Part shown: positions 4,501 through 53,093 of the stretch, one piece after another
Layout: each line of letters starts with the position of its first letter
Position numbering within the stretch: the stretch's first letter is position 1
Origin: Trypanosoma brucei
Lineage: Eukaryota
Direction: 5' to 3'
Length of the DNA stretch: 64,000 bases
Assembly (NCBI GenBank): GCA_000002445.1
Contig: CM000208.1
Span: 416,001 to 480,000, forward strand
The notes under the pieces: model-generated
What the model was told of the DNA's origin: nothing
What the model saw: the letters and a program-made list of their open reading frames with translations, nothing else
Databases searched by the model: none
Made by a program: the position numbers and the translations under genes

Positions 4501-5253
4501 TTAAGCACAGACACACTTTACTACATTTCCCTGAACCCCTCACCGGCTATTACAACAATCATTGCAAAGTAACACATCATCATATTGTTTGCTCATAATA
4601 TTCCGTACGGAGTAAAAATATGAACACAACAAACGCGTGAAGCCGATCGCATTTAAGCTGTGACAATTTCTCCTATATTTCCCCCTTCATATGTATGTTC
4701 TTTTCCTTGTATACGACAACACAGACATATATTTGTGTTTGCTGTTTTTTTTTGCATTTTTACTCATGAGTTTTGTATTCAATTATCTCCCTTTTTATTT
4801 GCCGCGTCATGCGTTTTACCTCAACGGGGGAACACATAAGGGTTGTAAACATTGCGCCTCCGAAGCAGGCACATGTAAAGTGAAGCGAGGGGGTAATGGG
4901 GAAGAGAGGGCAGCGCACTCCATCACACGCGTATGAATGAATAAAATGATATGAGATGAGATAGAAAGGAAAGAAAATGGAAAATAAATGGAAAATAAAT
5001 CATACAAATACCTAAGTATTTGCTACTCGCTCATGCGTGCAAGTACGAAAACGAAAAAAATGAAAAAAAGTCAAACGACATCAAGCCGCATGCTCGCGCC
5101 ATGTCCGTACGGTTAGATGGGAAAATTTAATCGAAAGTTGCGTAAGCGAGTGAATTACGCGTGCTAACTAAAGGCGTGAGAGTGCGGTTTCATATTGTCT
5201 GACGTTAGCTCATTGTTCCCATGCACCCGTACTGGTTTAGTCCAATTTCTTTC

Positions 5254-5274
5254 GTGTGTGTGTGTGTGTGTGTG
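5254..5274. repeat. (GT)10 microsatellite
   Basis: gtgtgtgtgtgtgtgtgtgtg read directly. A nearby (AT)11 sits at 5546..5568. Confidence 0.9.
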
Positions 5275-6074
5275 CGCGCACGTCTGTGGCAAATAACAGA
5301 AAACGAACAAAGCTTTTTTAAAAGGGTAATGGAGGGGGGAAATGAAGAAAATAAATAAACAAATAAATAAATAAATGGAGTTAAAAAGTTAAACGCTTCC
5401 CCCCTAACCCCCAGCACCTCCCGCACCCTTCCCCTTCTCCTCTTTCACCTTAATTTTGGCACTTCAGCCCACTTGACTCAGAGTCACAGCGGAACCCAAG
5501 TCCAGCTGAAGGAAGTAGAAACACACAAACGTAAAGGCACATACGTATATATATATATATATATATATTAAGTATATAAATGTTGAGTATATGAACAGTG
5601 AGAAAATCATGTCAGATGTCAAAACCCGCATACCATCACTGCTGCTATTAATTCGGTCTCTACCCACCACACTCTTCACACCCATCACCACCACCTACAA
5701 CTCGAATCCCGCACAAAAAGACATATGAATGTATATATGTATACATATACATATGCGCGATATTAAAACACACGTGATGCCTTCAGTGTGGTACAATCTC
5801 TCAACAAGATTGAATGAAAATACCCTTACTTATTCATGTCACTTTTTACACGCCACTTTTTTACTCGTTTTTTTTATCGCCTCTTTATCTGCTTCTTCCT
5901 TTCCTCCACCATTCCTCAAACATATGCATCATTTCGCTACCCACAAACACAAATGGATACTACTACTTCTTTCGATCCTTTACTCTATAAACCCCTTTAC
6001 CATCATTTAAAATCCCCCATACGAGGAGCACCTTAACGGCACCAAAGATGTTACACATTGCTGTGGACCACCGC

Positions 6075-9396: not shown

Positions 9397-10845
9397 CTAT
9401 GAAGCAGTCGCACCCGATTGTTGCAATTGGGCGAGAGTGATGTTATGTAGCATACGCTCCTTTACAATAAGGTGTGAAACTTTATCCAACAGCGCCACAC
9501 TGCGCCCTACAGCTTCGTCCCATGCCGTCACCACATCATTGGCGTTTTTATTCGCCTCAAAAACGACTAACCCATCCACGCGATCAATCTTCGCGTACAG
9601 TGTGCGCGAGGCGACCATCATCATGAGGAATTCCTCCGTGTGCTGCGGCGTGAGACCCACCAATTCGGCCAGTCGAACAAGACGCAGTCGGCGATAGAAG
9701 CGGGAAATGACCAAGAGGTCGTGTTCGCTGCAGCGGCTACGAAGCAACGCCTGGCGCTCAGGGAACCCAGCGAGCTGCGGGTGATTTATGCAGAGGGCCT
9801 CTACATCATCAGCAACACGCTCACGTATGAGTTCAATACTCGTAAACTTCTCCAGTAGGTATTGAAGTTGCGGATTCTCCTCCAACCGCTTCCTCAGAGT
9901 AGTAGTGATGCCTTGAATTGCTGCCGTGCGGTCGGCAAATTTTGTGGCGGGGGAAAAGGCAGCGCACTCAGCATGATCCTCCAGTTCCTTTGGCGACGAG
10001 TGCTCGGCGATAAGATAGTGCACCGCCATGCTGCTTAGGGCTGAAACACAGGCTGTTTCATCCGTTTCGGAAAGGAATGTCTCGTACCAACAGCGAGCCA
10101 CATGGAAGTAAGAACGGCGCTGCGCGAAATATTCGCGCATCAGTTCGAAATATTTAAGCTTCGCCTGCAAGGCCCCGGGTCTTGACAGGGCACGGTGGTT
10201 TATTCGGCGCGACACAAGCCGCGCGAGCTCATAATCCTCCAACTCGAGGCACAACCGGATCAAGCGGTTAAGAGCATCGAGTTTCTCCACGCGGGGCATA
10301 TTTGTCACTGTTTCCACATGCAACCCACTGAGCAAGTCGCACGCCGCCCGCTTCTCCCCATCGTCCTCCATTAACTTCGCTAAGTCGATAGCGAATCGCA
10401 CGTGCTCAAGCTCCACATGGATACGGCTGTCAGTAAGATGCACTACGCGCTCCAACACGATGCGGCGCTGCTCACGTGACAGATTGCCTTCAGTGAGGAG
10501 GACACCGCATTCAGCGATCATGGCACCCTGTGATTGTTTGGTTTGCCCACGCTTGCGCATGAGAGTTTCCAATGTGTCAAGCATTTTTTCGTGATCTCCA
10601 TGAACGCGGTAGATCCGCAATATTTCAACTACAAGACGTTTTGCCGACAGAGCATCACCACCTAGGCGCGCCATTTTCTCGAGAGCCAAAAGCTCATTAA
10701 CGAGATCGTCCAAGCTCGAATTGGTACTGCGCAAGAGAACAGGAATGGCGGTAGCATTGATGCGTTCGAGCAACGCATCTGTCGCCTCGCTGTGATCCTC
10801 CTCCTGCTTGAAGCTCGCACACTTCCACTGGTCTACGTCGGTCAT
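9397..10845 (-). CDS. RPN5: 26S proteasome regulatory (lid) subunit RPN5 / PSMD12, PCI-domain protein
   Basis: 482-aa ORF with ATG start. Collinear similarity to human PSMD12 over the whole length, e.g. 'IHVELEHVRFAIDLAKLMEDDGE...LSGLHVETV' vs '[23 protein letters not shown]...LQELQVETY'. The C-terminal PCI/winged-helix part matches too: 'ISRFYRRLRLVRLAELVGLTPQHTEEFLMMMVASRTLYAKIDRVDGLVVFE...LIVKERMLHN' vs '[50 protein letters not shown]...LIAKEEMIHN'. Confidence 0.85.
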   Translation of the reverse strand: MTDVDQWKCASFKQEEDHSEATDALLERINATAIPVLLRSTNSSLDDLVNELLALEKMARLGGDALSAKRLVVEILRIYRVHGDHEKMLDTLETLMRKRGQTKQSQGAMIAECGVLLTEGNLSREQRRIVLERVVHLTDSRIHVELEHVRFAIDLAKLMEDDGEKRAACDLLSGLHVETVTNMPRVEKLDALNRLIRLCLELEDYELARLVSRRINHRALSRPGALQAKLKYFELMREYFAQRRSYFHVARCWYETFLSETDETACVSALSSMAVHYLIAEHSSPKELEDHAECAAFSPATKFADRTAAIQGITTTLRKRLEENPQLQYLLEKFTSIELIRERVADDVEALCINHPQLAGFPERQALLRSRCSEHDLLVISRFYRRLRLVRLAELVGLTPQHTEEFLMMMVASRTLYAKIDRVDGLVVFEANKNANDVVTAWDEAVGRSVALLDKVSHLIVKERMLHNITLAQLQQSGATAS

Positions 10846-23302: not shown

Positions 23303-24970
23303 TCAACTCCTGCTGGATGGTATGGCCGCTGGTATCTGGCGTCGCAGCAAACCCACTCCCCCACCCTTGGAGCCACTGTTCGTACCACAGACCGTACGAC
23401 TGCTGCAAGCATCGGCAGAACCGGATGTGGGTGACGATACCCTACGAGGAGTGGAGGAAGGCCGCTCCACTGGAGAACCCGGACGGTTATTTAATGGACT
23501 GCTTCGCAGTAAAGATCTGTGAACCCTTGACGGAGATAACGCCGTCTTTCCAGCGCTCCACGCTGGTTGGACATTACTGCTCGGTTGCGATCGGTGTGGC
23601 GCAATGTTCCTGTAGGACGACAACCGTGTGGACGTCGCGAGAAACGCACTGGAATGCGAACTCACCGAACATGGACTACCTGACCGCGCTACTCCACTTC
23701 GAGAGAACCCCGTTGGTCTTGTGTAAGATGAGGTCCTTAACTGCGCGCCTCTTCCCTCAGACACAAGCGCAGATGAGGGACGCTGCACAGACCGCATCGG
23801 CGAACTGTTGTACACGACAGAGGGTAAAGGAGACCCCTTACGGTACTTGTGCCCGGACGTGAGTGTCGCGAACGGAGAGCGGGCTGGAGCGTGAATAGTG
23901 TCCGGCGATGGCAGGTGCGTGTGATATTCACCGACGTGACTTGCTCCATCAATCGTGGAATATCCGCTAGCCGTACGTGCGGCCTGCGATGAGGTGGCCC
24001 CGTCAAAAGCTGAGCAACTCCTGCCACTCTTTGATTCAAAACGTAGCGTGAGCTCTTGCCGTCCATGTGGATTTGTGCTAGGATCGGATTCGACACTACG
24101 ACCGCAGGGAGAGACACTGTGACGCATGATACTGTTGCTACGACGACGCCCCTCAAGGGCAATGGAACCATGGTAACCGAGGAAGTGATTCCCCGGTTCA
24201 CTTTGACGCAGTGGCTGAACGGTAACAACAGGCGTGCCGCTCCTTGGTTCAACATCTGACCCTTGCTTAGTGTCAACAAACACCAGACGCTTAGCCTTCT
24301 TCATGCGTGTTGTAGTAACTCGCACGTCGGACGTTTTAACTGGTTGGCCGACATCTACCTTGCTTGAGCACAGTTTGTATAGCTCGTTCTGACGCTGGCT
24401 GGCGGAGGTAAGACCATTAAGTAGTGTGTTACGAAGCATCCACTGGACATTGTCCAAACCAAAAGATGAATCGTCCACGTCAACATCAAAAATATCGTGT
24501 TCTATAGTGTTGCGCTTCGCAAACATTCGGAGTTGTCGCAGAAAATGTGGTTTTATGGACATGTCCTTGTGAGCCATTTCCAAAAAGGAGATGGCACTCT
24601 CCAGTTTCCACCCATACTTCACGATCAGGTAGGCCGCTACTAAGGCTGGGCTACGTGACATACCGAGTTGGCTGTGTACCAACACGCAATCACCAGCTTC
24701 AAGTGCCTCATCTATGAACCGCACCGTCCGCTTAACATTTTCATCCGCACTATCAAACATTACTGCTGTGCAGACTGAACCAGTAGGGTCTTTCCAGGGA
24801 AACGTAAGATATTTTACGCCATCGTCTGCGAAAAGATCAGCGAGCTCGCCACCGGCACAGTTAACAACATGGGTTATCTTGTTGAGTGAAATGAACTCAC
24901 GATCGTGTGCAGCCACCGCATTTCCCACGAAGATGCCATCCTTGACACGGACAGCGATAAGTTCCTGCAT
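23303..24970 (-). CDS. dual-specificity-phosphatase-like pseudophosphatase (catalytic Cys replaced by Ser) with long Ser/Pro/Arg-rich C-terminal tail
   Basis: 555 aa with ATG start. The N-terminal ~150 aa is a DUSP fold: 'ITHVVNCAGGE...' then the signature 'DCVLVHSQLGMSRSPALVAAYLIVKYGW'. The active-site HCx5R reads HSx5R; codon AGC at 24671-24673 on the minus strand sits where TGC is expected. The general-acid Asp region and the Arg are retained. The remaining ~400 aa is low-complexity S/P/R/T-rich. Confidence 0.8.
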   Translation of the reverse strand: MQELIAVRVKDGIFVGNAVAAHDREFISLNKITHVVNCAGGELADLFADDGVKYLTFPWKDPTGSVCTAVMFDSADENVKRTVRFIDEALEAGDCVLVHSQLGMSRSPALVAAYLIVKYGWKLESAISFLEMAHKDMSIKPHFLRQLRMFAKRNTIEHDIFDVDVDDSSFGLDNVQWMLRNTLLNGLTSASQRQNELYKLCSSKVDVGQPVKTSDVRVTTTRMKKAKRLVFVDTKQGSDVEPRSGTPVVTVQPLRQSEPGNHFLGYHGSIALEGRRRSNSIMRHSVSPCGRSVESDPSTNPHGRQELTLRFESKSGRSCSAFDGATSSQAARTASGYSTIDGASHVGEYHTHLPSPDTIHAPARSPFATLTSGHKYRKGSPLPSVVYNSSPMRSVQRPSSALVSEGRGAQLRTSSYTRPTGFSRSGVARSGSPCSVSSHSSAFLATSTRLSSYRNIAPHRSQPSSNVQPAWSAGKTALSPSRVHRSLLRSSPLNNRPGSPVERPSSTPRRVSSPTSGSADACSSRTVCGTNSGSKGGGVGLLRRQIPAAIPSSRS

Positions 24971-25786: not shown

Positions 25787-27682
25787 CTACTCGTTGCTTT
25801 CATCATCTTCGTCCTCATCCTCTCCATCCACCTTCGCTGGTTTGACCGGTTTTGCGACCTCTTCCACCATGTAGAAGTAGTTCCCCGCGATTTTCTGTTC
25901 ACGATCTTTAACCGAGTCAAACTTGTTGATTCGCGGACGGAAATTCGATGGATCACGTCTGAAAGTAATATCGAGGCTTTTCAAAAATTTGTTCATTCCC
26001 TCCAAGAGGGCACAGGGAGCGTTGGCCTTGCAATTTACAGCTGGAGTGCCGTCGTATACAATAACACGATCCGCCAGGTATGTTGCCATAATAAAATCGT
26101 GCTCAACGATGAACGCAGTTCGTTTGGCATGCATAATGTATCTCTTGATGACACGGGCAGCTATTATACGCTGGTCCGAATCCAAGTAGGCACTGGGTTC
26201 GTCTATTAGATAGATATTTGCCGGTGTGCCGAGGGCAAGGCATAGACCAACGCGTTGCAACTGACCACCGGAAAGGTGTTGCACCTCCTGATCGTACAGC
26301 TCCTCAACTGTCATGGGTTTTAGTACATCTGTCTGGAATTGGGGATTAGAGAACGCTTCGTATATCTTTGATTGGAGAAGATCCTTCACGGTTCCCTGAA
26401 ACTTCGGTGCGATCTTCTGTGGTTTGTAACTTATGCACAGTTGAGGTACTTCCACTTCATTATCCGGTTTAATGTGGCCAGCGAGCATGCGAATAAACGT
26501 CGTTTTACCACATCCATTCTCACCTAGAAGGACAACAATCTCAGAGTCAGAAAAGGATCCCGATTCGACAGTTAATGTAAACCCTCCCAAATTCTTTACC
26601 ATGGACGGGTAAGAATGTTGTACACTGCGTTTGGTCGTCTCTTCCAAGTCATCGGTAATGCGAAATGACAAACTCTCTTGACGAAACCTCAGATTTTCAG
26701 TTGGGACAAAACCATCCAAGAAAATGTTAATACCTTCTCGGACCCCGTAAGGCATCGTTACCACTCCGTAGATTCCGGGAACGCCGTAGAGAACACACAC
26801 GAAGTCGGACATATAGTCCACAACAGAAAGGTCATGCTCAACGACAACAACATAATTATCATCTTTCAGCAGAGAACGAATCACCTTAGCGGCCATCAGT
26901 CTCTGCCGAACATCCAAATAACTAGAAGGCTCGTCAAACATGTACACTGAGGCATTTTGGACACAGAGAGCAGCAATGGTAAACCGCTGTAGCTCACCAC
27001 CAGATAATTTTTCGAGTTCGCGATCAGCAACGTTTTCTATATCAAGTTCCTTCATATAGTAGTCCTTCACACCCCGCTCATCAGCTTTAGTTAGTAGATC
27101 CCCCACTTTTCCCTTGGTAACTTTGGGAACCTGATCCACATATTGTGGTTTCAGGAGAACACGCATCTTTTGCTCCAGCATGTGTTGAAAATACGCTTGG
27201 TGCTCAGACCCTCGAAAGTATTTTAATATCTCCTCCCAACTGGGTTCATCCTTATAGCGACCAAGATTTGGCTTAGTCTTGCCCTTCAGAATAGACAATG
27301 CCGTCGATTTGCCCGTGCCATTCGCTCCAACGAGTCCCAAGACCTGCCCTGGACGAGGAAGAGGTAGCCTATGGAGTTTGAAACTATTGGGGCCGTACCG
27401 ATGAACAGTATCTTTATTCAGATTGGATGGCAAGTTGATGATTTGAATGGCTCCATAAGGACATTTTTTAACGCATAAACCGCAGCCAATACAAAGTTCT
27501 TCTGAAATTACAGAAATTGTTGACTTTTTTTGAACCACAACACATAGTTTCCCCTGAAGGTTAACTGGACAGCACTTACTGCACTCTAGATTGCATTTTG
27601 CTGGCTTGCATCGGTCGTGGTTTACAACGGCAATACGAGTCAGTTTAGACTTTTCCTCATCTTGCCTGTTTTTAGGTGGCAT
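25787..27682 (-). CDS. ABCE1: ABCE1 / RNase L inhibitor (Rli1), ribosome-recycling ABC ATPase
   Basis: N-terminal 4Fe-4S ferredoxin-like domain '[26 protein letters not shown]...[12 protein letters not shown]', followed by two ABC cassettes (Walker A 'GANGTGKST' and 'GENGCGKTT', signatures 'LSGGELQR' and 'LSGGQLQR'). The track ORF begins at 27721 with TTG; the conserved start 'MPPKNRQ' is the ATG at 27682. Confidence 0.95.
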
Positions 27683-29448
27683 GTTAAAAGCTAATAGTAC
27701 TTTACCTTCATTAAAATGCAACAGAAGCCGCTAGTTATACGTCAGGAAGCAGTAGGTTCCTATTAACAGGACCTTGCGTTCGTATCAGTTTCGCTCCTTA
27801 CTCCGCGTTCGCACAGCGTACGACAGATGATAGATCTGTAAAATGTGTGTTAACCCTCGTACACACAACAGAAAAGGCAAGTCTCTTTCCCAGATATAGT
27901 TCGACAAACAAACCTCTGACATTCATTTACCACACAAATTACCCATTCCAAAAAGTATAACACTCCACCCATCACAAAAGCGAGCTGCTTGCGGTCATGA
28001 GCACCCACAGTGAAGGTCGCATTTCGCAGGGGAAAAAACACCACGCGACAGGAAACTGTGGGACTACAGAGATACATGCGTAGCGCACATTGTGGTCCTT
28101 AAAAATAAAAATAAGTTTTGTATTGCTTGGTAGGAAGTGTAAAAAAGGAAACCCCCCCCCCCGATAAGTTGGCACTTCAGATGACATTATCGGTCAAGAA
28201 TTGCCATACGCTCACAAAACCGAGCCATCATACGAATATGTATATATATTGGAGCATCGTACGGCATACCAAGAAAACTGCAGTTAGCTGGGTGAAAAGT
28301 CACCACACTGGCGTTTTTTTTTTACGATTCATAGAAAAAAACACGTAGGTGGAGTAACCGCGAGTGGATGCCACGACATACTGTAACAACTGTCACCCTC
28401 TTAGTCGCGCCCCCCCAAAAAAAAAAAAACTTAGAGACTCATCATTGGCTTATGTGGAAAGGTGGATAACACACGAAAAAGTATAACATGGGACGGGCAC
28501 CTCCTGTATTCAGTCCGAAGAGGGAAGTCCATTTGCAACAACGGTGAGTCCACTTGCCAGGCGAGAAAAAAAAAAGCAAACAGAAATTAGGTTAGCAACA
28601 AATCCTTTAGCTTCCCAGACGGAAAAAGAAATATATCCCTTACTCAACGGTCTCCCCCCCCCCACACACACACACAAGGCAAAATATAGAAAAAAACAAA
28701 TCGCAGCACGCACAAACTAAGAATAGACAGCGGCACTACCTCTTTAGCAATACGAAACCACGTTACAGAACTATCAGCGAAGGCACAGGGAAAACCTGAA
28801 CATATAGATAGAGAAAAAATCAGGCAGCAGTCCTGCAACCCTCTGACGACTTCAACAACGTTTTTTTTTTTGATGGCGAACATGCTTTATTCCTGCAACC
28901 AGTGCAAACGTAAATAAATTCTGACTTAAGGAAGTGGAAAGCGTTTACCCTTCAAAGCACTCAGAAACGCACAAACCGAAAATCTGATGGCGCTCGACAT
29001 ATGATGACAGACGCCATTCTTTTTTTTTTTTGACAACGAAGAAAAAAGTGCAACAAAGATGGCCACGTGAAGAAGTGATAAGGCCACGGTCGCGCCAGCA
29101 TCCGCCATCACTGGTAACCTCCAATCCATATACAACGGGGACAACAAAAATGTCAGTTGCTTCACCTTCAGGTAAAGGGACACCGAAGTGTGTAGGACAG
29201 AAAGTTTGGAGCCAGACAAAAATAAAACGACCGCATTGCCGCAACACGGAACATAGAAAAGTGAGGGAGAGTGACGACACGCACCAGCGGAGAAACCCAT
29301 CTAAGCGGTAACTTGAAAAGAAGTGCATGCACACACCAACAAATCTTACCTCAATCCTATATAGGAGTGCAACACAAACAAAAAGGGCAAAGCCAAACAC
29401 TACGCACCAACATCTACTACTACTGCCACCACCACCAAAAAATCTCCT

Positions 29449-31048: not shown

Positions 31049-34000
31049 ATTCCCTTCCCCACCCCCAGGAGAAATTAAAATTAGAGAAAAAATAGAAAAA
31101 AAACGGCACTCATTTATCACGAAAAGGGGAACTGCTCGTCGCCGTTACAACATGCCCCCAACAGAGATTTTCTTCTCCCCAGAACCTAAATTATCACATC
31201 ATGTCCCGCACAAATTCATACAAATAGGGGACAACGTAACTATGAATAATGTCCCTAATAACACTTTAATGCCACAAAGACTAGAAAATTGGGTCCCAGC
31301 GGCTGCCCAAACAGTCGTGAACGCCGAAATTTGAAACCCACCACAAACACACCGGAAACGACCGAATAGCACGGACCCCACTGGAGCCCACCCCCTGCGG
31401 AAACGTCACGATAACAAGCCGCTGTAGGATCCACAAAAGCTTCTTACCAACCGGACACTCGTGTTGTAACGCCCTAGGGTCAACAGACACGCGCAGCAAG
31501 CAATGTCGCCCATGCTGGGAGCCTCCACAAAATTTACACCGGGCGACGTCAAGCCCCACCGTCCAGCGCCACTCGATTGAATACCGCCGGGTCGATCCAG
31601 CGCAGGGGAAGCACCACCAGCAGTGTGACAGCAAGAGGGGGGAACCCCCACTTCCCATCCGAGGCTGAGCTCTGCCCCCTCGAGAGGAGGGGAACACACA
31701 CACAGACGCTCGCGGACTGACAGCAACTGCGAAGTGAAACACAGATTCATTTCCACTACCACCCGTGGCGGTCCGCCGCGCCAGGCAGACACCCCCGGAG
31801 GTCAGTGGTAGCAGGTTCGCTCCTGCAACGGCACATCGCGTTCGACCGCCGCAGCCTACCAAAAATTCTGTTTTTCCCCCATGTGGTTGGAATAGGTCCG
31901 GTGCCGAAGAGTCGAGTGGTTTACTTCGGACCAGCCCACAAGTGACGGAAGCAGATTAAATTCTTACGTGCGGAAAAGTGGATCATGTCTGCGTGCCCCT
32001 CTCCGATGTTGGAGTTAAAAATAGAGCGCGAAACCAACACCACCCCATACGCCAGACGCCGATGATAACCACCATCGTATCGATAAAACACCCAAACAAG
32101 CGCCACCTGTATGCTGAAGAAGCGTTCTCACGACCGAAGCAGCGCATCAAGCGAGGACGAGGTCCCGTGGAAAACGAAGGCCCCGACTTCCCGTTGGGGC
32201 GTTGGAAGGTATTCAGTCTCGGCTGATCCCCGGCCCTTTTCGGCGTCAAACTTGGTATTGTATTCGTACCACTCAAAAGGAAAAGAAGACGAATTATTTT
32301 CTTGCTCCTGAGGCCGCTGGCACATCAAGCCGTGATCCGGCCTACTCCCCACGCGGCGTTCTAGCTACACCAAGATCCAAGGGACAGTTGGAGAACATTT
32401 TGGAGCCCGTGGTAACAGGTGTGGCGTAGAAAGCTCCGGCAGGCTCGCAACGATGCCATCAGCAATGTCCACTCAAAGACATTTACTGCGGCAGACCACA
32501 ACACTGATTGCGCCAAAACTGTCTCCGTTATTCATGACACAGCCTTCGACACAACATAGCGCGACGAGCTTGGTACAGGAAATGAAAAAGTCGAACATAC
32601 AGCAGAGAATTATCAGAATGTTGGCAGTTTTTTTCAAGGCCAGAACGTGTAAAATAAGCGCCAGGGAGATGCTATCGGATGCAAAAATACTTCAGAAGAC
32701 TGCCCTACAAGGGAACCATATTCAGTAGCATCTTGGCCATTGAATTTATCTGCTCGCTGAACCGACTACTGGAAGAAGGACCCCAGTTACGTGCCGATTT
32801 GTTTACACATAACTGAACGCTGCTGCTTCCTCAAACGAAAGAGAAAAATATCAAACACACACTGCGGAGGTAAGTGGACATGGTGGCACCATGGTCTTGA
32901 GAGCACCTAATGGAAGTTTACCTAACGCAGATGAAAAGCACACCCTTCGGTTTTGTGAAATGAATACTGCTCACGCCAAACATCGGCGGAGCGTGGGTAG
33001 GGCTTGAGAGAACTTTAAAAGTTGCTCTTTGTGATACTCCATTGCATAATTGAGATGGCAAGGCGCGCTATGCAGACAATACGAAAAAAATTGACCTGAG
33101 TCTACTTCAAATAGGAGCAATATCTACTTTCACGCAGGGCTAAGCACACCAGCTTCTGCGGTTCTTTTACCTCGCACTGGCGCGAGCGTGTGTCATGTGA
33201 AGGGTTGAAGCGTCGTAATAGGATGTGTGTAAGGGTTGTGGAGGGGAACCCGCTGTTGCACACTGAAAATTTAGCTGTATCATTTCAGGCGTGACATAGC
33301 GAATGTACTAAGAGAGCACCCTCCCTGAAGGTAGCGGCCTACAGCTCAGGAGCGCCACATTAATACGTAGTCCCAAGTCCGTGTTGATGTGAGAAGTGAA
33401 AGTCTCAGTGAAGTGCAATGCCGAGGAAGAGTGTTTCCGAATCTTCATGTCCAAGACCACGAGGAGACACATTACACGATTTCACCAATCCCTTTGTGTC
33501 AAGTGGCGTAAGCCCCCAGTTACTTTCCTCACACTTCGATACCGCAACAGGGCTCTCTTTCGCAATTAAATAAGGCTCATACGCGCGGAAGATCACAAAG
33601 ATATAAAAATGAAAGCGAGGGTGGGCAGATTGCACAACGCTTCAGTGGAAACGGTGTACAATTACCGCCTGGTAGATGCCACGGGCCATGGACTGAGGGA
33701 TCTGCATTATTGGGGAAAAAAAGAATGGGACAGCTACGACAACATTGGGGGGAAACAAACTGATATTCGTGAAGCGGGCAAATGCAGCCCCATCGGCCCG
33801 CAGTAACCCAACAGAATCCCTAGCAATAGAAAAGGGTGCGGGAATGTCACTGGATGTTTTCCAAACGTATACAACGTCATAGAGAAAACTCCGGACGCTG
33901 CCTATGATGTGCTGGCACGTGTCCGGGACCGAGAAGTGAAAAACGGTGTCCCAGAAAAACGCGACCGGCCCCGACGCTATGAGAAGCCGGAGCTGGAGCA

Positions 34001-34995
34001 AAGCAGAGTTCCCCATTAGAGAAATGCTGCTGGCTCTTGGCTTCCTCTGAAAATACGGGGCGCTAGAACTTGGCACCACGTTGAGGTGGCCGGCGTCGCC
34101 CCTGAGCAGACTCTTGACAATCACAGACTTGCTGTTGCCACTCATGGTATTGGAAGCAGACCAATCCCACCGTGGCAGACCAACACCCAAATAAGCTACG
34201 GGTGCTTCTCCTACAAATACGGGAGGGAAAGCGTATACCACATTGAAGTTTGTATTTAGTCGTTGATGTGGAATGGAATGGGATGATTGATGGTATGGTG
34301 GAAAGGGTGACTGACATGCCGCAGTTGCCTGGCCCGAAGCTCCAGGACATTGTAACCTACATGGGACCGATATTGCTGTCAGCGGAAAAGGGAGTGAAGA
34401 AGAGGTGGCAGTGGCTCGTTCCCGCCCCGTTGCCTCTCGGCATTGCGAATGTATGCTGCGAAATATCAACACGCGGACACCGCTGCAGTGCCTGAAATGA
34501 AAAGTGCAAAGCCCGGCTTACAAAGCGTCGAACGCAGTAACGCAAATGGCAAATTGACACGAATATGGCCGCGCACATACCCCGTGAATATCGAGATGTG
34601 GCGGTACACCGCATTCGCGAGGAGCGTAGCTTTCCCCGCACAGGAGCACCGTGTTGGCCGAAATAGGGCACCCAGCTCGCAAAAGTGTCCGAACTTTTTT
34701 CCAACCGCTCACCCCCCACCCTTAATCCAGGGCTTTCTGGGGGGTGTGGCAACCTCTGCTGTCCAGGAAGGTGACCGAAACATAGGAGGGAAAGCGCCAC
34801 CGGGGTGCGTCCGCGAAGGTAATCAGAAGTGTACCTGAAAAATGTGAGGGGGACAAGGGGAAGTCTTGGCCCTTTCGATCCACGCTTTCTCCGGGAGCGC
34901 CGCGAATAGGTGTGTTGTCACTTTCGCGCCACTTCAAGGCCGCCTGAGGCCGGCGGGACCGCCGAGAGCTTTTAAACCGCCTCCGAGCTCTACTA

Positions 34996-35016
34996 GGGGG
35001 GGGGGGGGGAGGTGGG
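34996..35016 (+). repeat. G14 homopolymer followed by AGGTGGG (G-quadruplex-prone tract) inside the strand-switch region
   Basis: Read directly: ctaGGGGGGGGGGGGGGaGGtGGGctg. Confidence 0.9.
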
Positions 35017-36086
35017 CTGACGGTGAGATCGTGGTGCGGGTCGTATATGCATGTCTTTCTCCCTGAGGAACGCGCTGTGGAGTGTTAACGAAGGAAATAG
35101 GAATACCTCTGTCGCGTATGTGATTGGTATGAAAGGCGGTGGCGAGAACAGCGGGATGAGATGTCATGCCACTTCCTGTTGGTGCTGGTCGTGGTTCTCC
35201 AGGGCATTCAACCGCCTTCTTGCATGCTAAAGGTAGCGAAATTTGTAAGACAAGTGTCGTGAGGGTAGGAAGTTACCATACTTGTTCAGTATGCTTATGT
35301 GGGTTTCTGGTCTACAGTTAATTCCATTTTACTCTAATTTATACTGTCCCTTATGTTAGAGGTAGAAGCCTCATTGTGGTGTCAGGGTCTAGTACGCAGG
35401 AATAATTAAATTTTCTATGGAAGCTAACTGTCACCACATGAACACTGGAATATCGACCACAGTGGGCAGCTGCTGGGGTGCCATTGTGAGTGCACTTTTG
35501 GACGTTGAAGATATTTATGTGTGTGAAGCGCAAATCAACACGCGGATATGTGGCTACTTCATGTTTTACAGTTGAGCACCTTTGCAAGTAGAACCCATCG
35601 AAGTCGTATACGTGCCATTAGCTGTAGAGCTAGTGGTGAATTTACAGGGTGAGATGCCACAACAGCTATAGGAGGGGTAGAAGGCTACAATGAAGACCAT
35701 CCCTTTATACGACCGTGCGAATCATGGTCTCCATGCACTGGCAAAGTGGGTGGGTAATAATCTCCACTTAAGAGGGTTTTAGTAGGCAGTGGCTCGTTCT
35801 CCAAGGCTGAGTCCCACACTATCATGTCATGTGACATGATCTGCATAAACGCATTTCCTTCTGTTCGCTAGTGTGGCGTGGCCACGATTGTCGTCAATCC
35901 GCACATTGAAGAAAAAAACTTATGCTGTATTTTTGTACTCTTTGCCAGGGAACCTTGCTCCAACGGGGGTTTCGTGGTCTGTGAGCCATGCAAGCGACAC
36001 AGAGGCAACTACTGTTTGCACTCCAGTCTTGTTTCCCTCTGCGTCCGGTTCAAAGGTGACACCGACCTCGTAATCACTGAAAAGCT

Positions 36087-36107
36087 TGTGTGTGTGTGTG
36101 TGTGTGT
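36087..36107. repeat. (GT)10 microsatellite just upstream of the HDAC gene
   Basis: tgtgtgtgtgtgtgtgtgtgt read directly. Confidence 0.9.
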
Positions 36108-36400
36108 CGCCCCCTTCATTACATAATTCGGCCTGAAAGGGGAAGGTAAATGCGAGTGTGCAGTTGCGTTCTGAAGTGCCACGAGGGCTGATAAAAAGGA
36201 CAAGATGTGGGTGAAAAGCTTATATACTTTTTTTGTGTATCGGGTACGGTGGTAGCAAAACTCGTGTGTGTGGTTTCACTTAATTTGGTTGTTTCATCTG
36301 CGTGAGGTCACTTTGACTTGCGGTGCAAGGTAATATATTGTCATTTCCTCAAACAGCGTATTCATTTATAATAACCTAGAAGGTTCGTACAGTTTCTCAA

Positions 36401-37567
36401 ATGAATGAGGATGGTGATTGTCGGCGCGTCGCTCTCATTGACACATCTTGCTATTCCGCTGATTGTACGCTCTCAGCGTTGGTTCCTCAGCATGCAATGA
36501 AACCGTATAGACTTTTGGTGACAATGGAACTAATTGCATCACTGGGGTTAAAGCGGTTTTGTCGGACGGTTGTCCCGCCACCAATTGGTATTAAAGAGCT
36601 GCTTACCTACCATGCTGAAGATTACATACTGAATCTGGGACTTCATAGTAACCGCAGCTGGTTGTGGAATACAGAGGTATCGAAGGTTACCTTTTCCGGA
36701 GATTGTCCACCTGTTGAGGGAATTGTTGAATATTCTCTCTCAACAGTTAGTGGCTCCCTCATGGCGGCTGTTTTGCTGAATAGTGGTGCTGTCGATACAG
36801 CGATTCATTGGGGTGGAGGTATGCATCATGCAAAGTGCGGTGAGTGTTCTGGATTCTGTTACGTGAATGATATTGTTATCGCCATTATTGAGCTACTGAA
36901 ATGCCATGATAGAGTTTTATATGTTGATCTTGATATGCATCACGGAGACGGAGTCGACGAAGCGTTTTGCCGTAGCAGAAGAGTCTTTACTCTTTCCCTT
37001 CACAAGTTTGGCGAGTCCTTTTTTCCGGGTACAGGCCATCCACGGGATGTAGGCATTGGAAACGGACGCCACTACACTATGAACTTAGCCATGTGGGATG
37101 GTGTGGATGACTTCTACTACACCACAGTTTTTGAGCGTGCGCTCAGATCCATTGTAAAACGGTTCAATCCAAATGTAGTTGTCTTGCAGTGTGGAGCCGA
37201 TTCGCTCGCAGGAGATCGTTTGGGACATTTTAATCTCTCGTCATGGGGTCATGGAAAGTGTGTTGAAGAGGTAAAGAAATTAGGGCTACCAATGCTTGTG
37301 GTTGGTGGTGGTGGTTACACCCTGCGGAATGTTGCCAAGCTGTGGGCATACGAAACTAGCATACTCTGTGGGAAAAGGCTCCCCTTGAACACTGTCATTC
37401 CTCTACATCGAATGCCTCTTAGTGGATGGCTCTTCGAAGAATCGCCACAACTTTTAGTTTCACAGGATGAAGAAAACAAACCTCTTCCTGGTGTTAACGT
37501 TCAACGATCCTTCCGCGTGATTATTGAGCAAATAGACAAGCACTGTCCAAATATAATGACTGTTTGA
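36401..37567 (+). CDS. class I histone deacetylase (RPD3/HDAC1-like; resembles trypanosome DAC1)
   Basis: 388 aa with ATG start. Catalytic signatures present: 'HWGGGMHHAKCGECSGFCYVNDIV' (HH pair), 'DLDMHHGDGVDEAF' (Zn-binding Asp/His), 'VVGGGGYTLRNVAK' (GGGGY). Looks catalytically competent. Confidence 0.95.
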   Translation: MNEDGDCRRVALIDTSCYSADCTLSALVPQHAMKPYRLLVTMELIASLGLKRFCRTVVPPPIGIKELLTYHAEDYILNLGLHSNRSWLWNTEVSKVTFSGDCPPVEGIVEYSLSTVSGSLMAAVLLNSGAVDTAIHWGGGMHHAKCGECSGFCYVNDIVIAIIELLKCHDRVLYVDLDMHHGDGVDEAFCRSRRVFTLSLHKFGESFFPGTGHPRDVGIGNGRHYTMNLAMWDGVDDFYYTTVFERALRSIVKRFNPNVVVLQCGADSLAGDRLGHFNLSSWGHGKCVEEVKKLGLPMLVVGGGGYTLRNVAKLWAYETSILCGKRLPLNTVIPLHRMPLSGWLFEESPQLLVSQDEENKPLPGVNVQRSFRVIIEQIDKHCPNIMTV

Positions 37568-37800: not shown

Positions 37801-38739
37801 ATGAACTTGGCAAATTCTCATTGTATCGGACCCGACAGTCCTGATGCTGGTCTGGCACCTTCCTGTAAAGGGTGCCCAAATGCTTCTCTATGTGCTTCTG
37901 CACCCAAAGGTCCCGATCCTGATATTGAACTTATCAGGCAACGGTTGTCTGGTGTTAAGCGGAAGGTGCTAATCGTTAGTGGGAAAGGAGGTGTGGGGAA
38001 GAGTACGCTTACTAAAGAGTTGGCTTTTGCCATTGGGAAGAGAGGACTCAACGTTGCTGTTGTTGATCTCGACATATGCGGGCCCTCTATTCCACGTTTG
38101 ACGGGCGCTCGGGGGGAAAATGCACACTACAGTGCCACTGGTATTGAACCGGTGATGATCGATGAAACGGTGACTATGATGTCCATGCACTACTTTCTTG
38201 AAAATAAGAATGAAGCTGTGCTCTTTCGCGGGCCCAGGAAGAATGGCGCTGTCAAAATGTTTCTGAAGGATGTAATTTGGAACGATGTTGATGTGATGCT
38301 GATTGACACACCCCCTGGGACGTCAGATGAGCACATCACTACTGCATCTCTTCTTCAGCAATGTGGTGGCGTCAGTGGCGCTGTTTTAGTAACCACACCC
38401 CAGATGGTTGCAGAGGCTGACGTAAGACGGGAGGTAAACTTCTGTCAAAAGGCAAAATTGAACATAATGGGTATTGTTGAAAATATGAGCGGTTTCGTGT
38501 GCCCTAACTGTGGTAGTGGCTCGTTTATATTTCCACGTACAAATACGCGGGGTGCTGGAAAGCGCTTAAGCGAGGAGTTTGGAATTCCTCTTTGGGGAGA
38601 AATACCCCTTGATCCAAAGCTGATGAGCTCGTGCGAGGAAGGTACCCCTCTTGCAGAGTCTGTCGACCAAAATAATCCAACGCTTGATGTTTTGAACTCA
38701 ATTTCGAGGAAACTCATTGAAAGTTTAGCGATGGAGTAG
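37801..38739 (+). CDS. NBP35: cytosolic Fe-S cluster assembly P-loop NTPase Nbp35 (NUBP1-like)
   Basis: N-terminal ferredoxin-like Cys cluster 'CIGPDSPDAGLAPSCKGCPNASLC' (C-x13-C-x2-C-x5-C). Deviant Walker A 'VSGKGGVGKST'. C-terminal bridging-cluster motif 'CPNCGSGS' (CxxC). Confidence 0.85.
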   Translation: MNLANSHCIGPDSPDAGLAPSCKGCPNASLCASAPKGPDPDIELIRQRLSGVKRKVLIVSGKGGVGKSTLTKELAFAIGKRGLNVAVVDLDICGPSIPRLTGARGENAHYSATGIEPVMIDETVTMMSMHYFLENKNEAVLFRGPRKNGAVKMFLKDVIWNDVDVMLIDTPPGTSDEHITTASLLQQCGGVSGAVLVTTPQMVAEADVRREVNFCQKAKLNIMGIVENMSGFVCPNCGSGSFIFPRTNTRGAGKRLSEEFGIPLWGEIPLDPKLMSSCEEGTPLAESVDQNNPTLDVLNSISRKLIESLAME

Positions 38740-50228: not shown

Positions 50229-51023
50229 CTATGCTCCGGTGTTCTGTTTACCGGATGCGACGGGCGGGAAAGCGTGGCCGGCACGTGTGTCCTCCAACTC
50301 TTCACTTCGACGTGCCTCTGTACATACTGCGTCGGGTTCCACAACGGGGAAAGCATGTGTTGTGTTCAGCTCCTTGGCTTGCTCCTCCTGCAGGGTGCTG
50401 CCAGCGGGCTTTTTCCGAAGTTCCACTGCGGGCAGGGTGCACAAAGGACGTGAACCCTCCTCATCGACCTGTCGAGATCCAACCCGGGCCCCATCAGATT
50501 CATTATCTGGCGAAGCACTCGGAGAGCGCGGGTCCGTCCTGGCTTCACTGAGTTTAGCACTTGCGGTGCGTTTGAATGGCTCCACGGCGGGAAAGGCTTG
50601 TGTGGGTCGCGGGTCACCTGGTGACGGCGCTCGCGGTTCTCCTTCACAGGTGTCGGGTTCTCCGGGAACCGCGCTGGACCCATTCCCCTTGGTCTTCTGG
50701 ACTTGCCGCTGTTGAGTGGCAAGGCGCGGGGCATCGGGGACGACTATAGGCAAAGCGCTCGTAAACGGCATTTCTTTTCTACCATCCTTCAGCTGAGGAT
50801 CGCTGGAGGGTTTAACGGGCTCCATGACGGGCAAAAGATGGGGGGCATGCGGTTTCTTATAATCAGACGACTGTCCTGCTTCGGCGGCTGGTGCTTCAAT
50901 TTCTCTTTGCAGTGGAGCGCCGATGTGGCATACTTCTTGCTGGCGTTCCCCATGATCAGGGATTTCTACGAGAGAACCTTCCGGGCCAGCGCTTTGTCCT
51001 CTTGGAAAATTTTCCGTTTTCAT
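50229..51023 (-). CDS. hypothetical Pro/Ala/Glu-rich protein carrying six diverged copies of an 'AFPxVEP'-type peptide motif; lone minus-strand ORF inside the gene-poor interval
   Basis: The minus-strand ORF (track 50229..51164, TTG start; first ATG 51023) contains HAPHLLPVMEP, ALPIVVPDAP, QAFPAVEP, TLPAVEL, HAFPVVEP and HAFPPVAS. The DNA copies (e.g. ggttccacaacggggaaagc, ggctccacggcgggaaaggc, gggctccatgacgggcaaaag, tccactgcgggcagggtgc) differ mostly at codon third positions. It is the only frame spanning all copies. It is antisense to the flanking plus-strand units, so the call is tentative. Confidence 0.35.
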   Translation of the reverse strand: MKTENFPRGQSAGPEGSLVEIPDHGERQQEVCHIGAPLQREIEAPAAEAGQSSDYKKPHAPHLLPVMEPVKPSSDPQLKDGRKEMPFTSALPIVVPDAPRLATQQRQVQKTKGNGSSAVPGEPDTCEGEPRAPSPGDPRPTQAFPAVEPFKRTASAKLSEARTDPRSPSASPDNESDGARVGSRQVDEEGSRPLCTLPAVELRKKPAGSTLQEEQAKELNTTHAFPVVEPDAVCTEARRSEELEDTRAGHAFPPVASGKQNTGA

Positions 51024-51338
51024 AGCGCCTTTACGTTGACCTACGGATTTCGGTGCCTTCAGCGCTTGAAGCGGAGCAGTCCACTCGTTTATAGCAAACC
51101 TTGCTTTGAAGGCCTTAATCGAGCAAAAGTCGCAAAGTTTAAAAAGTCTACCACCGTTAGTCAAAAGAAAGCATCATCTGAACCACACAAAGGAATAAGA
51201 GCACACCACTACCACAGAGATGCTCTAGTGGAGCACACGAACGCCCCCTTTCCATTCTCAACTGCAGCGAAAGAAAAGGGGAAAATAAAACTGTCAGCAC
51301 ATACGTACCTTTTTATTTGTGGTAGATGGAGCGCAGAA

Positions 51339-51361
51339 ATATATATATATATATATATATA
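51339..51361. repeat. (AT)11-12 microsatellite
   Basis: atatatatatatatatatatata read directly, immediately upstream (on the minus strand) of the motif-repeat ORF. Confidence 0.9.

Positions 51362-53052: not shown

Positions 53053-53053
<1 letters not shown>

Positions 53054-53088
<35 letters not shown>
53054..53088. repeat. (CA)17 microsatellite
   Basis: cacacacacacacacacacacacacacacacacac read directly. Confidence 0.95.

Positions 53089-53093
<5 letters not shown>

What the first reader, a model, noticed from the sequence alone, without database searches (positions are those of the whole stretch)
23303..24970. DUSP-fold protein with HSx5R active site (Cys replaced by Ser): predicted pseudophosphatase with a 400-aa Ser/Pro/Arg-rich tail
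The signature reads VLVHSQLGMSRSP. Everything needed for phosphate binding (the P-loop Arg, backbone Gly, upstream Asp region) is kept. The nucleophilic Cys is AGC (Ser) instead of TGC. C-to-S versions of PTP/DUSPs bind but do not hydrolyse phosphosubstrates (substrate traps, STYX-like). Kinetoplastid phosphatomes are known to contain many catalytically inactive DSP-like proteins. This one fuses the dead domain to a long low-complexity tail, suggesting a phospho-dependent adaptor rather than an enzyme.
Basis: partly seen in the sequence, partly recalled or inferred. Interest (0 to 1): 0.5.

Follow-up and report, generated by a model that had tools for sequence, protein, structure and literature searches.

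The report
Known trypanosome dead phosphatase, wider family
This is Trypanosoma brucei gene Tb927.10.1620, listed since 2007 as a "STYX"-type inactive dual-specificity phosphatase, so the finding is real but not new; what may be new is that it belongs to a large Ser-bearing protist family whose tail carries a conserved motif that looks like a PP1-phosphatase docking site.

Summary
A 555-aa ORF (23303-24970, minus strand) has a confident DSPc domain, the P-loop VLVHSQLGMSRS, and AGC (Ser100) where DUSPs have Cys.

It is not a sequencing error. The protein is identical in T. b. brucei TREU927 and T. equiperdum and 99% identical in T. b. gambiense. Ser is kept in every trypanosomatid ortholog examined.

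It is also already known. [quoted passage not shown]

What I add:
- It is not a STYX ortholog. It belongs to a large family (at least 493 cluster representatives) in Euglenozoa, alveolates and stramenopiles, which is almost uniformly Ser.
- The folded unit extends to about aa 205 and includes an invariant NTxLN helix.
- The tail is disordered but not featureless. It carries conserved linear motifs, some of them published phosphosites (pS365 is cell-cycle regulated).
- The most conserved tail motif, [KR]-[ILV]-x-[WF]-x-D (KRLVFVD), fits the PP1-docking RVxF consensus. This is a hypothesis and has not been tested.

Interest is low to moderate.

The parts
23303..24970 (-). Whole gene Tb927.10.1620 (old ID Tb10.70.6300, UniProt Q38C79), 555 aa plus stop codon
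   Evidence: ORF. 100% identical to the T. b. brucei TREU927 and T. equiperdum proteins. Gene ID and product name from the supplements of PMC6907760 and PMC11408851 and PMC2175518.
24506..24949 (-). Dual-specificity-phosphatase fold core (aa 8-155)
24788..24802 (-). D-loop FPWKD with the general-acid position Asp61
   Evidence: D61 is present in 56 of 59 homologs and W59 in 56 of 59. It aligns with the D-loop of DUSP22.
24650..24676 (-). P-loop HSQLGMSRS (aa 99-107). Ser100 (AGC, 24671-24673) replaces the catalytic Cys.
   Evidence: Position 100 is S in 55, C in 2, D in 1 and G in 1 of 59 homologs. G103 and R106 are 59/59, H99 is 57/59 and S105 is 55/59.
24530..24559 (-). N-loop region SIKPHFLRQL. 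Lys140 sits where active DUSPs have Asn (PNxGF).
   Evidence: Position 140 is K in 48 and R in 3 of 59. N is kept in P0057 and P0059. The two Cys-bearing orthologs have A or L here.
24341..24505 (-). Family-specific helical extension (aa 156-210) containing the invariant motif NTLLN (aa 181-185, window 24416-24430)
   Evidence: AF2 helices at 175-186, 189-194 and 196-204 with pLDDT about 85. N181 and N185 are invariant and T182 nearly so. NTxLN is present in 102 of 122 further representatives. No PDB structure aligns beyond about 147 residues.
24269..24301 (-). KKAKRLVFVDT (aa 224-234): conserved RVxF-type short linear motif and candidate PP1-docking site
   Evidence: Found in 51 of 53 euglenozoan members (shuffled mean 4.7) and 16 of 24 others (shuffled mean 3.5), and in 86 of 100 further representatives. 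Flank profile: basic at -4 to -1; I/L/V at 0; W77/F19 at +2; D89/E10 at +4. Same layout as the validated LtPNUTS motif R96-V-C-W99-x-D101. Lies in a segment with pLDDT below 50. Binding to PP1 has not been tested.
24050..24133 (-). SIMRHSVSPCGRSVESDPSTNPHGRQEL (aa 280-307): conserved tail motif that AF2 places against the folded unit
   Evidence: Consensus SILxRxxSPCxRRLESDPxxxPKGRQxL across Kinetoplastea. It forms a pLDDT island of about 77 at aa 290-310, with single bridge residues at about 165 and about 309. The docking site could not be inspected because no coordinates were available.
23822..23884 (-). ARSPFATLTSGHKYRKGSPLP (aa 363-383): conserved proline-directed phosphosites S365 and S380
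   Evidence: Conserved motif RSPFAxLxSxHKxRxGSPLP. pS365 is listed as cell-cycle regulated (log2 maximum change 2.07, cluster Phos-02) under the allelic fragment Tb11.v5.0643 S279. S380 is listed in PMC11408851 dataset S3.
23432..23437 (-). S512/S513 (RRVSSP): detected phosphosites
   Evidence: pS512 has log2 maximum change 1.74, cluster Phos-22. S513 has log2 -3.09 among the sites significantly changed after a DNA double-strand break.
23306..23350 (-). Conserved C-terminal motif LLRRQIPAAIPSSRS (consensus LRRQxPxxIxSxRR)
   Evidence: Conserved to the C-terminus in trypanosomatids and bodonids.

Best explanation
Tb927.10.1620 is a non-catalytic (Cys-to-Ser) dual-specificity-phosphatase-fold protein. 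It keeps an intact phosphate-binding pocket and most likely works as a cytoplasmic phospho-dependent scaffold rather than an enzyme. SHOWN: the fold; Ser at the nucleophile position; near-invariance of the pocket residues D61, H99, G103, S105 and R106; a family-specific helical extension; a disordered tail with conserved linear motifs; and real, regulated phosphorylation of the tail in vivo, from published proteomics. INFERRED: the pocket binds a phospho-ligand without hydrolysing it, as C-to-S DUSP substrate traps do (STYX is the natural non-catalytic precedent, with Gly at that position), and the tail motifs recruit partners. My specific proposal is that the most conserved tail motif, [KR]-[ILV]-x-[WF]-x-D (KRLVFVD, aa 227-233), is an RVxF-type docking site for a PP1 catalytic subunit. 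On that reading the protein is a PP1 regulatory subunit whose dead DSP domain supplies phospho-target recognition, or binds its own phosphorylated tail as a switch. Proline-directed, cell-cycle-regulated phosphorylation (pS365 and others) would tune this. Sub-confidences: no Cys-based phosphatase activity about 0.85; phospho-ligand binding by the pocket about 0.6; PP1 docking about 0.35.
For: Fold and P-loop. Ser100 in independent assemblies. Ser in 55 of 59 homologs and 106 of 110 further representatives, with the pocket frame invariant. Position 100 tolerates S, C, D and G while R106 and G103 never change, which fits binding rather than a fixed chemistry. Same classification in the literature and in the database. 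Tail motifs conserved across Kinetoplastea. Phosphosites on those motifs. RVxF-like motif far above the shuffle expectation, with the typical basic and acidic flanks, in a disordered segment, and the same layout as the experimentally validated Leishmania PNUTS RVCWxD. Precedent for a C-to-S DSP protein that acts through its long tail: STYXL2.
Against: There is no biochemical or genetic data for this protein or any family member. The gene is absent from the one T. brucei PP1/PNUTS paper whose supplementary files I could search, and those files may not include a PP1 pull-down list. The loose RVxF pattern is common by chance, and L rather than V or I at the central position (as in T. brucei) is the weaker variant. 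No clear phi-phi or canonical SILK motif accompanies it. Strict conservation of the general-acid Asp61 is not needed for pure binding and could hint at residual or different chemistry. The N-loop Asn is replaced by Lys, so the pocket may not bind phosphate exactly as active DUSPs do.
Confidence: 0.6

Rival explanations
1. The DSP domain is only a structural remnant. All function lies in the disordered tail, as reported for vertebrate STYXL2, and the pocket binds nothing.
For: In STYXL2 the C-terminal part without the DSPc domain is necessary and sufficient for function. The trypanosome tail has many conserved motifs and regulated phosphosites.
Against: The domain is the most conserved part of the protein. 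Pocket-specific residues (D61, H99, G103, S105, R106) are almost invariant across Euglenozoa, alveolates and stramenopiles, which is more than fold stability alone should require.
Confidence: 0.17
2. The conserved basic-hydrophobic motif is a MAPK docking (D/KIM) motif rather than a PP1 site. The protein would then anchor or sequester a phosphorylated MAP kinase through its dead pocket, as the reviews I retrieved describe for pseudophosphatases of the STYX type regulating MAPK signalling.
For: A basic cluster followed by phi-x-phi (KKAKRLVFV) also fits the (R/K)2-3-x1-6-phi-x-phi pattern (sequence). Reviews that turned up in the literature searches describe STYX-type pseudophosphatases as regulators of MAPK signalling. 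The best sequence matches are DUSPs that act on MAPKs.
Against: The last hydrophobic position is almost always aromatic (W 77%, F 19%) and is followed by a fixed acidic residue at +2. That is characteristic of RVxF sites and not of D-motifs. There is no rhodanese/CH2 domain.
Confidence: 0.12
3. Ser100 is a working nucleophile (or the pocket carries out some other chemistry), so the domain is an active enzyme with an unusual mechanism or a non-protein substrate.
For: The general-acid Asp61, His99 and Arg106 are strictly conserved. Ser and Cys have exchanged repeatedly at this site, and both Ser codon classes (AGY and TCN) are in use, as seen at the nucleophile of some hydrolase families. There is one Asp variant (P0041).
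Against: From established knowledge, engineered C-to-S mutants of DUSPs and PTPs are inactive substrate traps; the top PDB matches here are such mutants (DUSP22 C88S and VHR C124S). Gly variants exist in the family (P0052, P0211). The N-loop Asn is lost.
Confidence: 0.07
4. AGC is a sequencing or assembly error for TGC.
For: A single T-to-A change would produce it.
Against: The protein is identical in TREU927 and T. equiperdum, and the T. b. gambiense protein is 553/555 identical with the same P-loop. The codon is AGC or AGT in T. cruzi marinkellei, L. mexicana, Bodo saltans and a diplonemid-like contig. [quoted passage not shown]
Confidence: 0.01

Closest known systems
The kinetoplastid 'STYX' entry of the TriTryp phosphatome (Tb10.70.6300 / Tc00.1047053506977.10 / LmjF21.0700; Brenchley et al. 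2007)
   Same: It is this very gene. The paper lists the same 555-aa protein (Q38C79) and the same P-loop VH*SQLGMSRS, flagged as a catalytic-Cys substitution and as inactive.
   Different: The paper uses 'STYX' as a functional label for one trypanosomatid triplet. It does not describe the wider family, the NTxLN extension, the tail motifs or any partner.
Human STYX (phosphoserine/threonine/tyrosine-interacting protein)
   Same: DSP fold with the nucleophile replaced and the rest of the pocket kept. It is thought to bind phospho-ligands, and activity is restorable by putting Cys back.
STYXL2 / DUSP27 (vertebrate striated muscle)
   Same: An N-terminal DSPc domain with a natural Cys-to-Ser change, followed by a long C-terminal region that carries the function.
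   Different: It is restricted to vertebrate muscle and acts on non-muscle myosin II. There is no sign of shared ancestry beyond the DSP fold, and no NTxLN or [KR][ILV]x[WF]xD signature is reported for it.
STYXL1 / MK-STYX
   Different: MK-STYX also lacks the His and has an N-terminal rhodanese/CH2 domain. Here His99 is kept and no such domain is present.
PP1 regulatory subunits with an RVxF motif, such as Leishmania/Trypanosoma PNUTS
   Same: A disordered region carries [K/R]-x0-1-[V/I/L]-x-[F/W], preceded by basic residues and followed by an acidic one. The LtPNUTS motif R96-V-C-W99-x-D101 has been validated by mutagenesis.
   Different: There is no sequence homology to PNUTS. PP1 binding is untested here, and no phi-phi or Phe motifs were recognised. 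I found no paper describing a DSP-fold pseudophosphatase as a PP1 subunit.
Atypical DUSPs DUSP22/JSP-1 and VHR/DUSP3
   Same: These are the best sequence matches (E 2.7e-12 and 1e-10). They share the single-domain DSP core, the D-loop Asp and the P-loop Ser-Arg.
   Different: They are active Cys enzymes with an N-loop Asn. They lack the helical extension and the tail.

Membership tests
Dual-specificity phosphatase fold (Pfam DSPc PF00782) | Sequence match above the curated threshold | tested here: met
   74.5 bits against a cutoff of 33.5, aa 13-151.
Dual-specificity phosphatase fold (Pfam DSPc PF00782) | DSP three-dimensional fold | tested here: met
Catalytically active Cys-based DSP | HCx5R with a nucleophilic Cys | tested here: not met
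   HSx5R with codon AGC. Ser is conserved.
Catalytically active Cys-based DSP | D-loop general-acid Asp and P-loop Arg | tested here: met
   D61 in 56 of 59 and R106 in 59 of 59.
Catalytically active Cys-based DSP | N-loop Asn (PNxGF) supporting the P-loop | tested here: not met
   The sequence is IKPHF, with Lys140 in place of Asn. The role of the Asn is taken from the abstract of PMC7589817.
Pseudophosphatase (functional class) | Catalytic nucleophile missing, and the substitution is conserved in orthologs | tested here: met
Pseudophosphatase (functional class) | No phosphatase activity, with phospho-ligand binding | not testable with these tools
   Needs recombinant protein. No published assay was found.
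STYX family proper (orthologs of human STYX) | Gly at the Cys position (HGx5R) | tested here: not met
   The residue here is Ser. Gly occurs only in two diplonemid-like relatives.
STYX family proper (orthologs of human STYX) | Closer to STYX than to other DUSPs | tested here: not met
MAP kinase phosphatases / MK-STYX | N-terminal rhodanese (CH2) domain with a kinase-interaction motif | tested here: not met
   DSPc is the only Pfam family above its cutoff, and the DSP domain starts at residue 8.
PP1-interacting protein (RVxF class) | [K/R]-x0-1-[V/I/L]-{P}-[F/W] in a disordered region with a basic N-flank and an acidic C-flank | tested here: met
   K227-R-L-V-F-V-D233 in a segment with pLDDT below 50. 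Flank profile. Definition from PMC10731240.
PP1-interacting protein (RVxF class) | Motif conserved beyond chance | tested here: met
   51 of 53 against 4.7 expected, and 16 of 24 against 3.5 expected. 86 of 100 further representatives.
PP1-interacting protein (RVxF class) | Accessory motifs (phi-phi, SILK, Arg/Phe) | tested here: inconclusive
   Hydrophobic enrichment appears only at +11 and +13, which is not the usual spacing. A SIMR/SILxR stretch lies about 50 aa downstream of the motif rather than upstream.
PP1-interacting protein (RVxF class) | Physical binding to a PP1 catalytic subunit | not testable with these tools
There was no hit in the supplements of PMC11229358.

The most novel reading that the evidence does not exclude
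The kinetoplastid 'STYX' is one member of an old, unnamed protist family found in Euglenozoa, alveolates and stramenopiles. The family is defined by HSxxGxxR, an NTxLN helix and a tail motif [KR]-[ILV]-x-[WF]-x-D, and it acts as a phospho-reader regulatory subunit of PP1: a dead tyrosine-phosphatase-fold domain that steers a live Ser/Thr phosphatase. A corollary is that the sporadic Cys-bearing members (a Trypanoplasma borreli transcript and a related metagenomic sequence, plus one ciliate-like and one stramenopile-like sequence) would be natural reversions of a pseudoenzyme to a possible enzyme.
Probability: 0.3. Interest if true: 0.6.

Novelty: already known. Interest (0 to 1): 0.3.

Why it matters
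As stated, the finding adds nothing to the 2007 phosphatome catalogue or the current database annotation. The follow-up results could matter more. They give an uncharacterised, conserved and expressed trypanosome protein a concrete, testable hypothesis: PP1 docking through KRLVFVD, with phospho-recognition by the dead pocket. PP1 has eight isoforms in trypanosomatids and very few known regulatory subunits, so a new one would be useful. The family-wide view (Ser nearly fixed across three eukaryotic groups, with occasional Cys, Asp or Gly) also offers a natural experiment on how pseudoenzymes are maintained and whether they can revert.

Tried and rejected
- NCBIfam gave nothing useful.
- Searches for the old and guessed new gene IDs found only review tables or unrelated genes. 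LdBPK_210820 is an ATPase subunit, and LINF_210012700 is ABCE1.
- The supplements of one T. brucei PP1/PNUTS paper do not mention the gene.
- The AFDB Foldseek library was unavailable, so organism names had to come from cluster look-ups.
- The AF2 coordinates are not exposed. I could not see where the aa 290-310 motif docks, and I could not inspect the pocket around Ser100 and Lys140.
- Cys95 (CVLVHS) as an alternative nucleophile: rejected. It lies in the beta-strand before the P-loop, and other DUSPs have a Cys nearby (DUSP22 has one, offset by one position).
- Orthology to STYX: rejected.
- The idea that Cys is ancestral within Euglenozoa: rejected on parsimony. Euglenids, diplonemids, Papus, Neobodo, Bodo and the trypanosomatids all have Ser, and the five sampled use AGY.
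Full report
**1. What is there**

The window holds a 555-aa ORF on the minus strand at 23303-24970. Pfam finds one domain above its cutoff, DSPc (PF00782), at aa 13-151, with E 8.9e-21 and 74.5 bits against a cutoff of 33.5.

The best solved-structure relatives by sequence are atypical DUSPs. DUSP22 scores 49.5 bits, and VHR/DUSP3, DUSP13 and DUSP19 follow. Human STYX is much weaker at 30.1 bits.

The P-loop reads CVLVHSQLGMSRSPAL (aa 95-110). The codon at residue 100 is AGC, at window 24671-24673. The D-loop FPWKD supplies Asp61 at the general-acid position. His99, Gly103, Ser105 and Arg106 are all present.

**2. Not an error**

The exact protein is in T. b. brucei TREU927 and T. equiperdum. 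The T. b. gambiense DAL972 protein is 553/555 identical and has the same P-loop.

Orthologs cover the whole length at 59-81% identity in other Trypanosoma species and 40-50% in Leishmania and its relatives. All of them have Ser.

At the DNA level the codon is AGT in T. cruzi marinkellei, AGC in L. mexicana, AGT in Bodo saltans and AGT in a diplonemid-like contig.

Orthology is backed by synteny. ABCE1 lies immediately upstream in the window (25787-27721, minus strand), in L. mexicana, and apparently in Bodo saltans.

**3. Already known**

The TriTryp phosphatome paper (Brenchley et al. 2007, PMC2175518) lists Tb10.70.6300 (Q38C79, 555 aa) as the single T. brucei "STYX" among the atypical DSPs. 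Its Additional file 5 shows "VH*SQLGMSRS" together with Tc00.1047053506977.10 and LmjF21.0700, as the group with a substituted catalytic Cys.

Reviews from 2010 and 2017 repeat this and state that the protein is uncharacterised.

[quoted passage not shown] ABCE1 is Tb927.10.1630.

**4. Not a STYX ortholog, but a member of a large protist family**

A profile of the domain plus its C-terminal extension, built from ten divergent members (alignment A3), was searched two ways.

- The word-indexed search gave a clean split. Every hit down to about E 1e-22 whose P-loop is covered has Ser at the nucleophile position (H-S-xxGxxR; the His is L or F in four). The generic DUSPs that follow all have Cys there.
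- The exhaustive search of 1.84 billion cluster representatives found 493 at E<=1e-30, and the top 150 all span the whole profile.

Of the 122 new representatives, 110 had a P-loop I could parse: 106 Ser, 2 Cys, 1 Gly and 1 mis-parse.

Named members come from three groups:
- Euglenozoa: Diplonema papillatum, Euglena longa and the kinetoplastid Papus ankaliazontas.
- Alveolates: Paramecium octaurelia, the dinoflagellates Effrenium and Durusdinium, Vitrella brassicaformis and Colpodella angusta.
- Stramenopiles: Ectocarpus, Choristocarpus, a pelagophyte and Phaeothamnion.

I found no named member from animals, fungi or plants, but I did not test for absence rigorously.

**5. Anatomy beyond the Pfam domain**

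AlphaFold2 with a 59-sequence alignment gives the following:
- pLDDT above 90 for the core.
- About 85 for a helical extension to about aa 205, with helices at 175-186, 189-194 and 196-204.
- Below 50 for nearly all the rest, except an island of about 77 at aa 290-310.

The extension contains the family's most striking signature, DNxQWMLRNTLLNGL. N181 and N185 are invariant and T182 is nearly so.

The tail (aa 211-555) is 20% Ser and 10.7% Arg, with Gly and Pro at 8.4% each. It carries motifs conserved across Kinetoplastea:
- [KR][KR]-[ILV]-x-F-V-D-T (aa 224-234).
- SILxRxxSPCxRRLESDPxxxPKGRQxL (aa 280-307, which includes the pLDDT island).
- RSPFAxLxSxHKxRxGSPLP (aa 363-383).
- YRNIAPHRS (aa 453-461).
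- Several RxxSP copies.
- A C-terminal LRRQxPxxIxSxRR.

**6. The tail is phosphorylated in vivo**

In the cell-cycle phosphoproteome of Benz and Urbaniak (PMC6907760), the sites are filed under an allelic fragment, Tb11.v5.0643, whose numbering is offset by 86 residues.

- pS365 (ARS*PFA) is listed with a log2 maximum change of 2.07 in cluster Phos-02. That cluster is enriched for CDK-motif sites and also contains CYC6 and CRK3 sites.
- pS512 (RRVS*SP) has 1.74, in cluster Phos-22.
- Protein abundance is essentially flat, with a log2 maximum of 0.40.
- In the DNA-break phosphoproteome (PMC11408851), S513 is among the significantly decreased sites at log2 -3.09, and S380 (KGS*PLP) is also detected.

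**7. A candidate PP1-docking motif**

The motif after the extension fits the published RVxF definition, [K/R]-x0-1-[V/I/L]-x-[F/W].

- It occurs at a fixed distance after NTxLN in 51 of 53 euglenozoan sequences (shuffled mean 4.7, maximum 12) and in 16 of 24 others (shuffled mean 3.5, maximum 8). The eight "misses" still keep a [VIL]-x-[FW] core.
- It is also present in 86 of 100 further representatives and in every named lineage with enough tail.
- The flanks, which my search pattern did not impose, are basic at -4 to -1 (47, 40, 57 and 71%). Acidic residues are almost absent upstream.
- Position +2 is W 77% or F 19%, and position +4 is D 89% or E 10%. My pattern imposed the residue class at these two positions, so only the preference within each class is informative.

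The experimentally validated Leishmania PNUTS site is R96-V97-C98-W99-x-D101, and mutating V97, W99 or D101 reduces PP1 binding. T. brucei K227-R228-L229-V230-F231-V232-D233 has the same layout.

I therefore propose that this family are PP1 regulatory subunits. This rests on the motif alone, and I put it at about 0.35. The main alternative is a MAPK docking motif, but the fixed aromatic and acidic positions fit that less well. I found no paper describing a DSP-fold pseudophosphatase with an RVxF site.

**8. Evolution of the nucleophile position**

Within the family the pocket frame is fixed: G103 and R106 59/59, H99 57/59, D61 56/59 and S105 55/59. Position 100 is S in 55, C in 2, D in 1 and G in 1.

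All non-Ser forms are nested among Ser relatives:
- C and D forms sit among the bodonids (a Trypanoplasma borreli transcript and two metagenomic sequences).
- G forms sit among the diplonemids (Hemistasia-like).
- One C form is closest to the Paramecium member.
- One C form is closest to P0059 and Ectocarpus.

Within Euglenozoa, Ser (AGY in all five sampled) is therefore ancestral, and Cys (TGC) is a one-step secondary change.

Outside Euglenozoa the Ser codon is TCT, TCC, TCG and TCT, but AGC in P0059, whose closest relative has Cys. The two Ser codon classes are two steps apart but each is one step from TGY. So codon switching through a Cys intermediate, or repeated independent C-to-S losses, are both plausible. 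I could not decide between them.

The two kinetoplastid Cys forms have also changed W59 to F, lost K140 and changed F143 to W. This hints at a remodelled pocket, but it is a single lineage.

**9. Mechanism, and how sure I am**

Shown: the fold, the Ser, the conserved pocket, the extension, the conserved motifs and the phosphorylation.

Inferred from established knowledge of C-to-S DUSP mutants and of STYX and STYXL2: no Cys-type catalysis (about 0.85) and phospho-ligand binding (about 0.6).

Hypothesis: PP1 recruitment through KRLVFVD (about 0.35), possibly with the protein's own phosphorylated tail as a competing ligand for the pocket.

Rivals: a purely tail-driven scaffold, a MAPK anchor, and a Ser-based enzyme. 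They are listed in the rivals section with the tests that would separate them.

**10. Verdict**

The finding is real, correctly interpreted and already catalogued, so novelty is "already known" and interest is modest at 0.3. The family-level signature and the PP1 hypothesis are the parts worth carrying forward.

Noticed in passing
window 23303-24970 (database issue): Published phosphosites for this gene are filed under a second ID, Tb11.v5.0643. This is an allelic or unassembled fragment whose numbering is 86 residues lower (S279 = S365, S426 = S512). Anyone who looks up only Tb927.10.1620 misses most of the sites.
   Followed up: yes
window 24671-24673; loci L001-L011: The conserved Ser uses both codon classes across the family. 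It is AGY in all five Euglenozoa sampled and in P0059, and TCT, TCC, TCG and TCT in four other non-euglenozoan members. Cys (TGY) forms sit next to the lineage where the class differs, which recalls Brenner's 'two serines' argument.
   Followed up: partly
P0043 (L004 177-2378) and P0045 (Trypanoplasma borreli transcript): The two kinetoplastid orthologs that have Cys at the nucleophile position have also changed W59 to F, lost K140 (A or L instead) and changed F143 to W. These are possible natural reversions of a pseudophosphatase with a remodelled pocket. It is a single lineage, so this counts as one evolutionary event.
   Followed up: partly
window 25787-27721 (-); L002 361-2340; L003 55-744: ABCE1 (the RNase L inhibitor homolog, Tb927.10.1630) lies directly upstream of the DSP gene in T. 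brucei, in L. mexicana and apparently in Bodo saltans, so this gene pair has been kept together across Kinetoplastea. The listed ABCE1 ORF starts at a TTG. The real start is probably the ATG at MPPKNRQ, 13 codons further in.
   Followed up: partly
window ~32000-36400 and ~51000-59000: GC skew changes sign near 32-34 kb. Long ORFs are on the minus strand up to 34472 and on the plus strand from 36401. This looks like a divergent strand-switch region between polycistronic units. Orientation flips again around 50-59 kb.
   Followed up: no
window 2001-6000: This stretch has clearly lower G+C (0.37-0.39) than the rest of the window (about 0.45-0.56), and no ORF of 200 aa or more.
   Followed up: no
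window 24050-24133 (aa 280-307) and ~24476 (aa ~165): AF2 gives the conserved ESDPxxNPxGRQxL tail motif a pLDDT of about 77 and a single bridge residue at about 309, paired with one at about 165 in the acidic DIFDVDVDD segment. This suggests the motif folds back onto the extension.
   Followed up: partly
window 36401-37567 (+), 37801-38739 (+), 9397-10845 (-): Neighbouring genes are ordinary housekeeping types: a histone-deacetylase-domain protein, a NUBP/ParA-type iron-sulfur P-loop NTPase, and a PSMD12/CSN4-like PCI protein. Several other ORFs of 276-829 aa have no Pfam match.
   Followed up: partly
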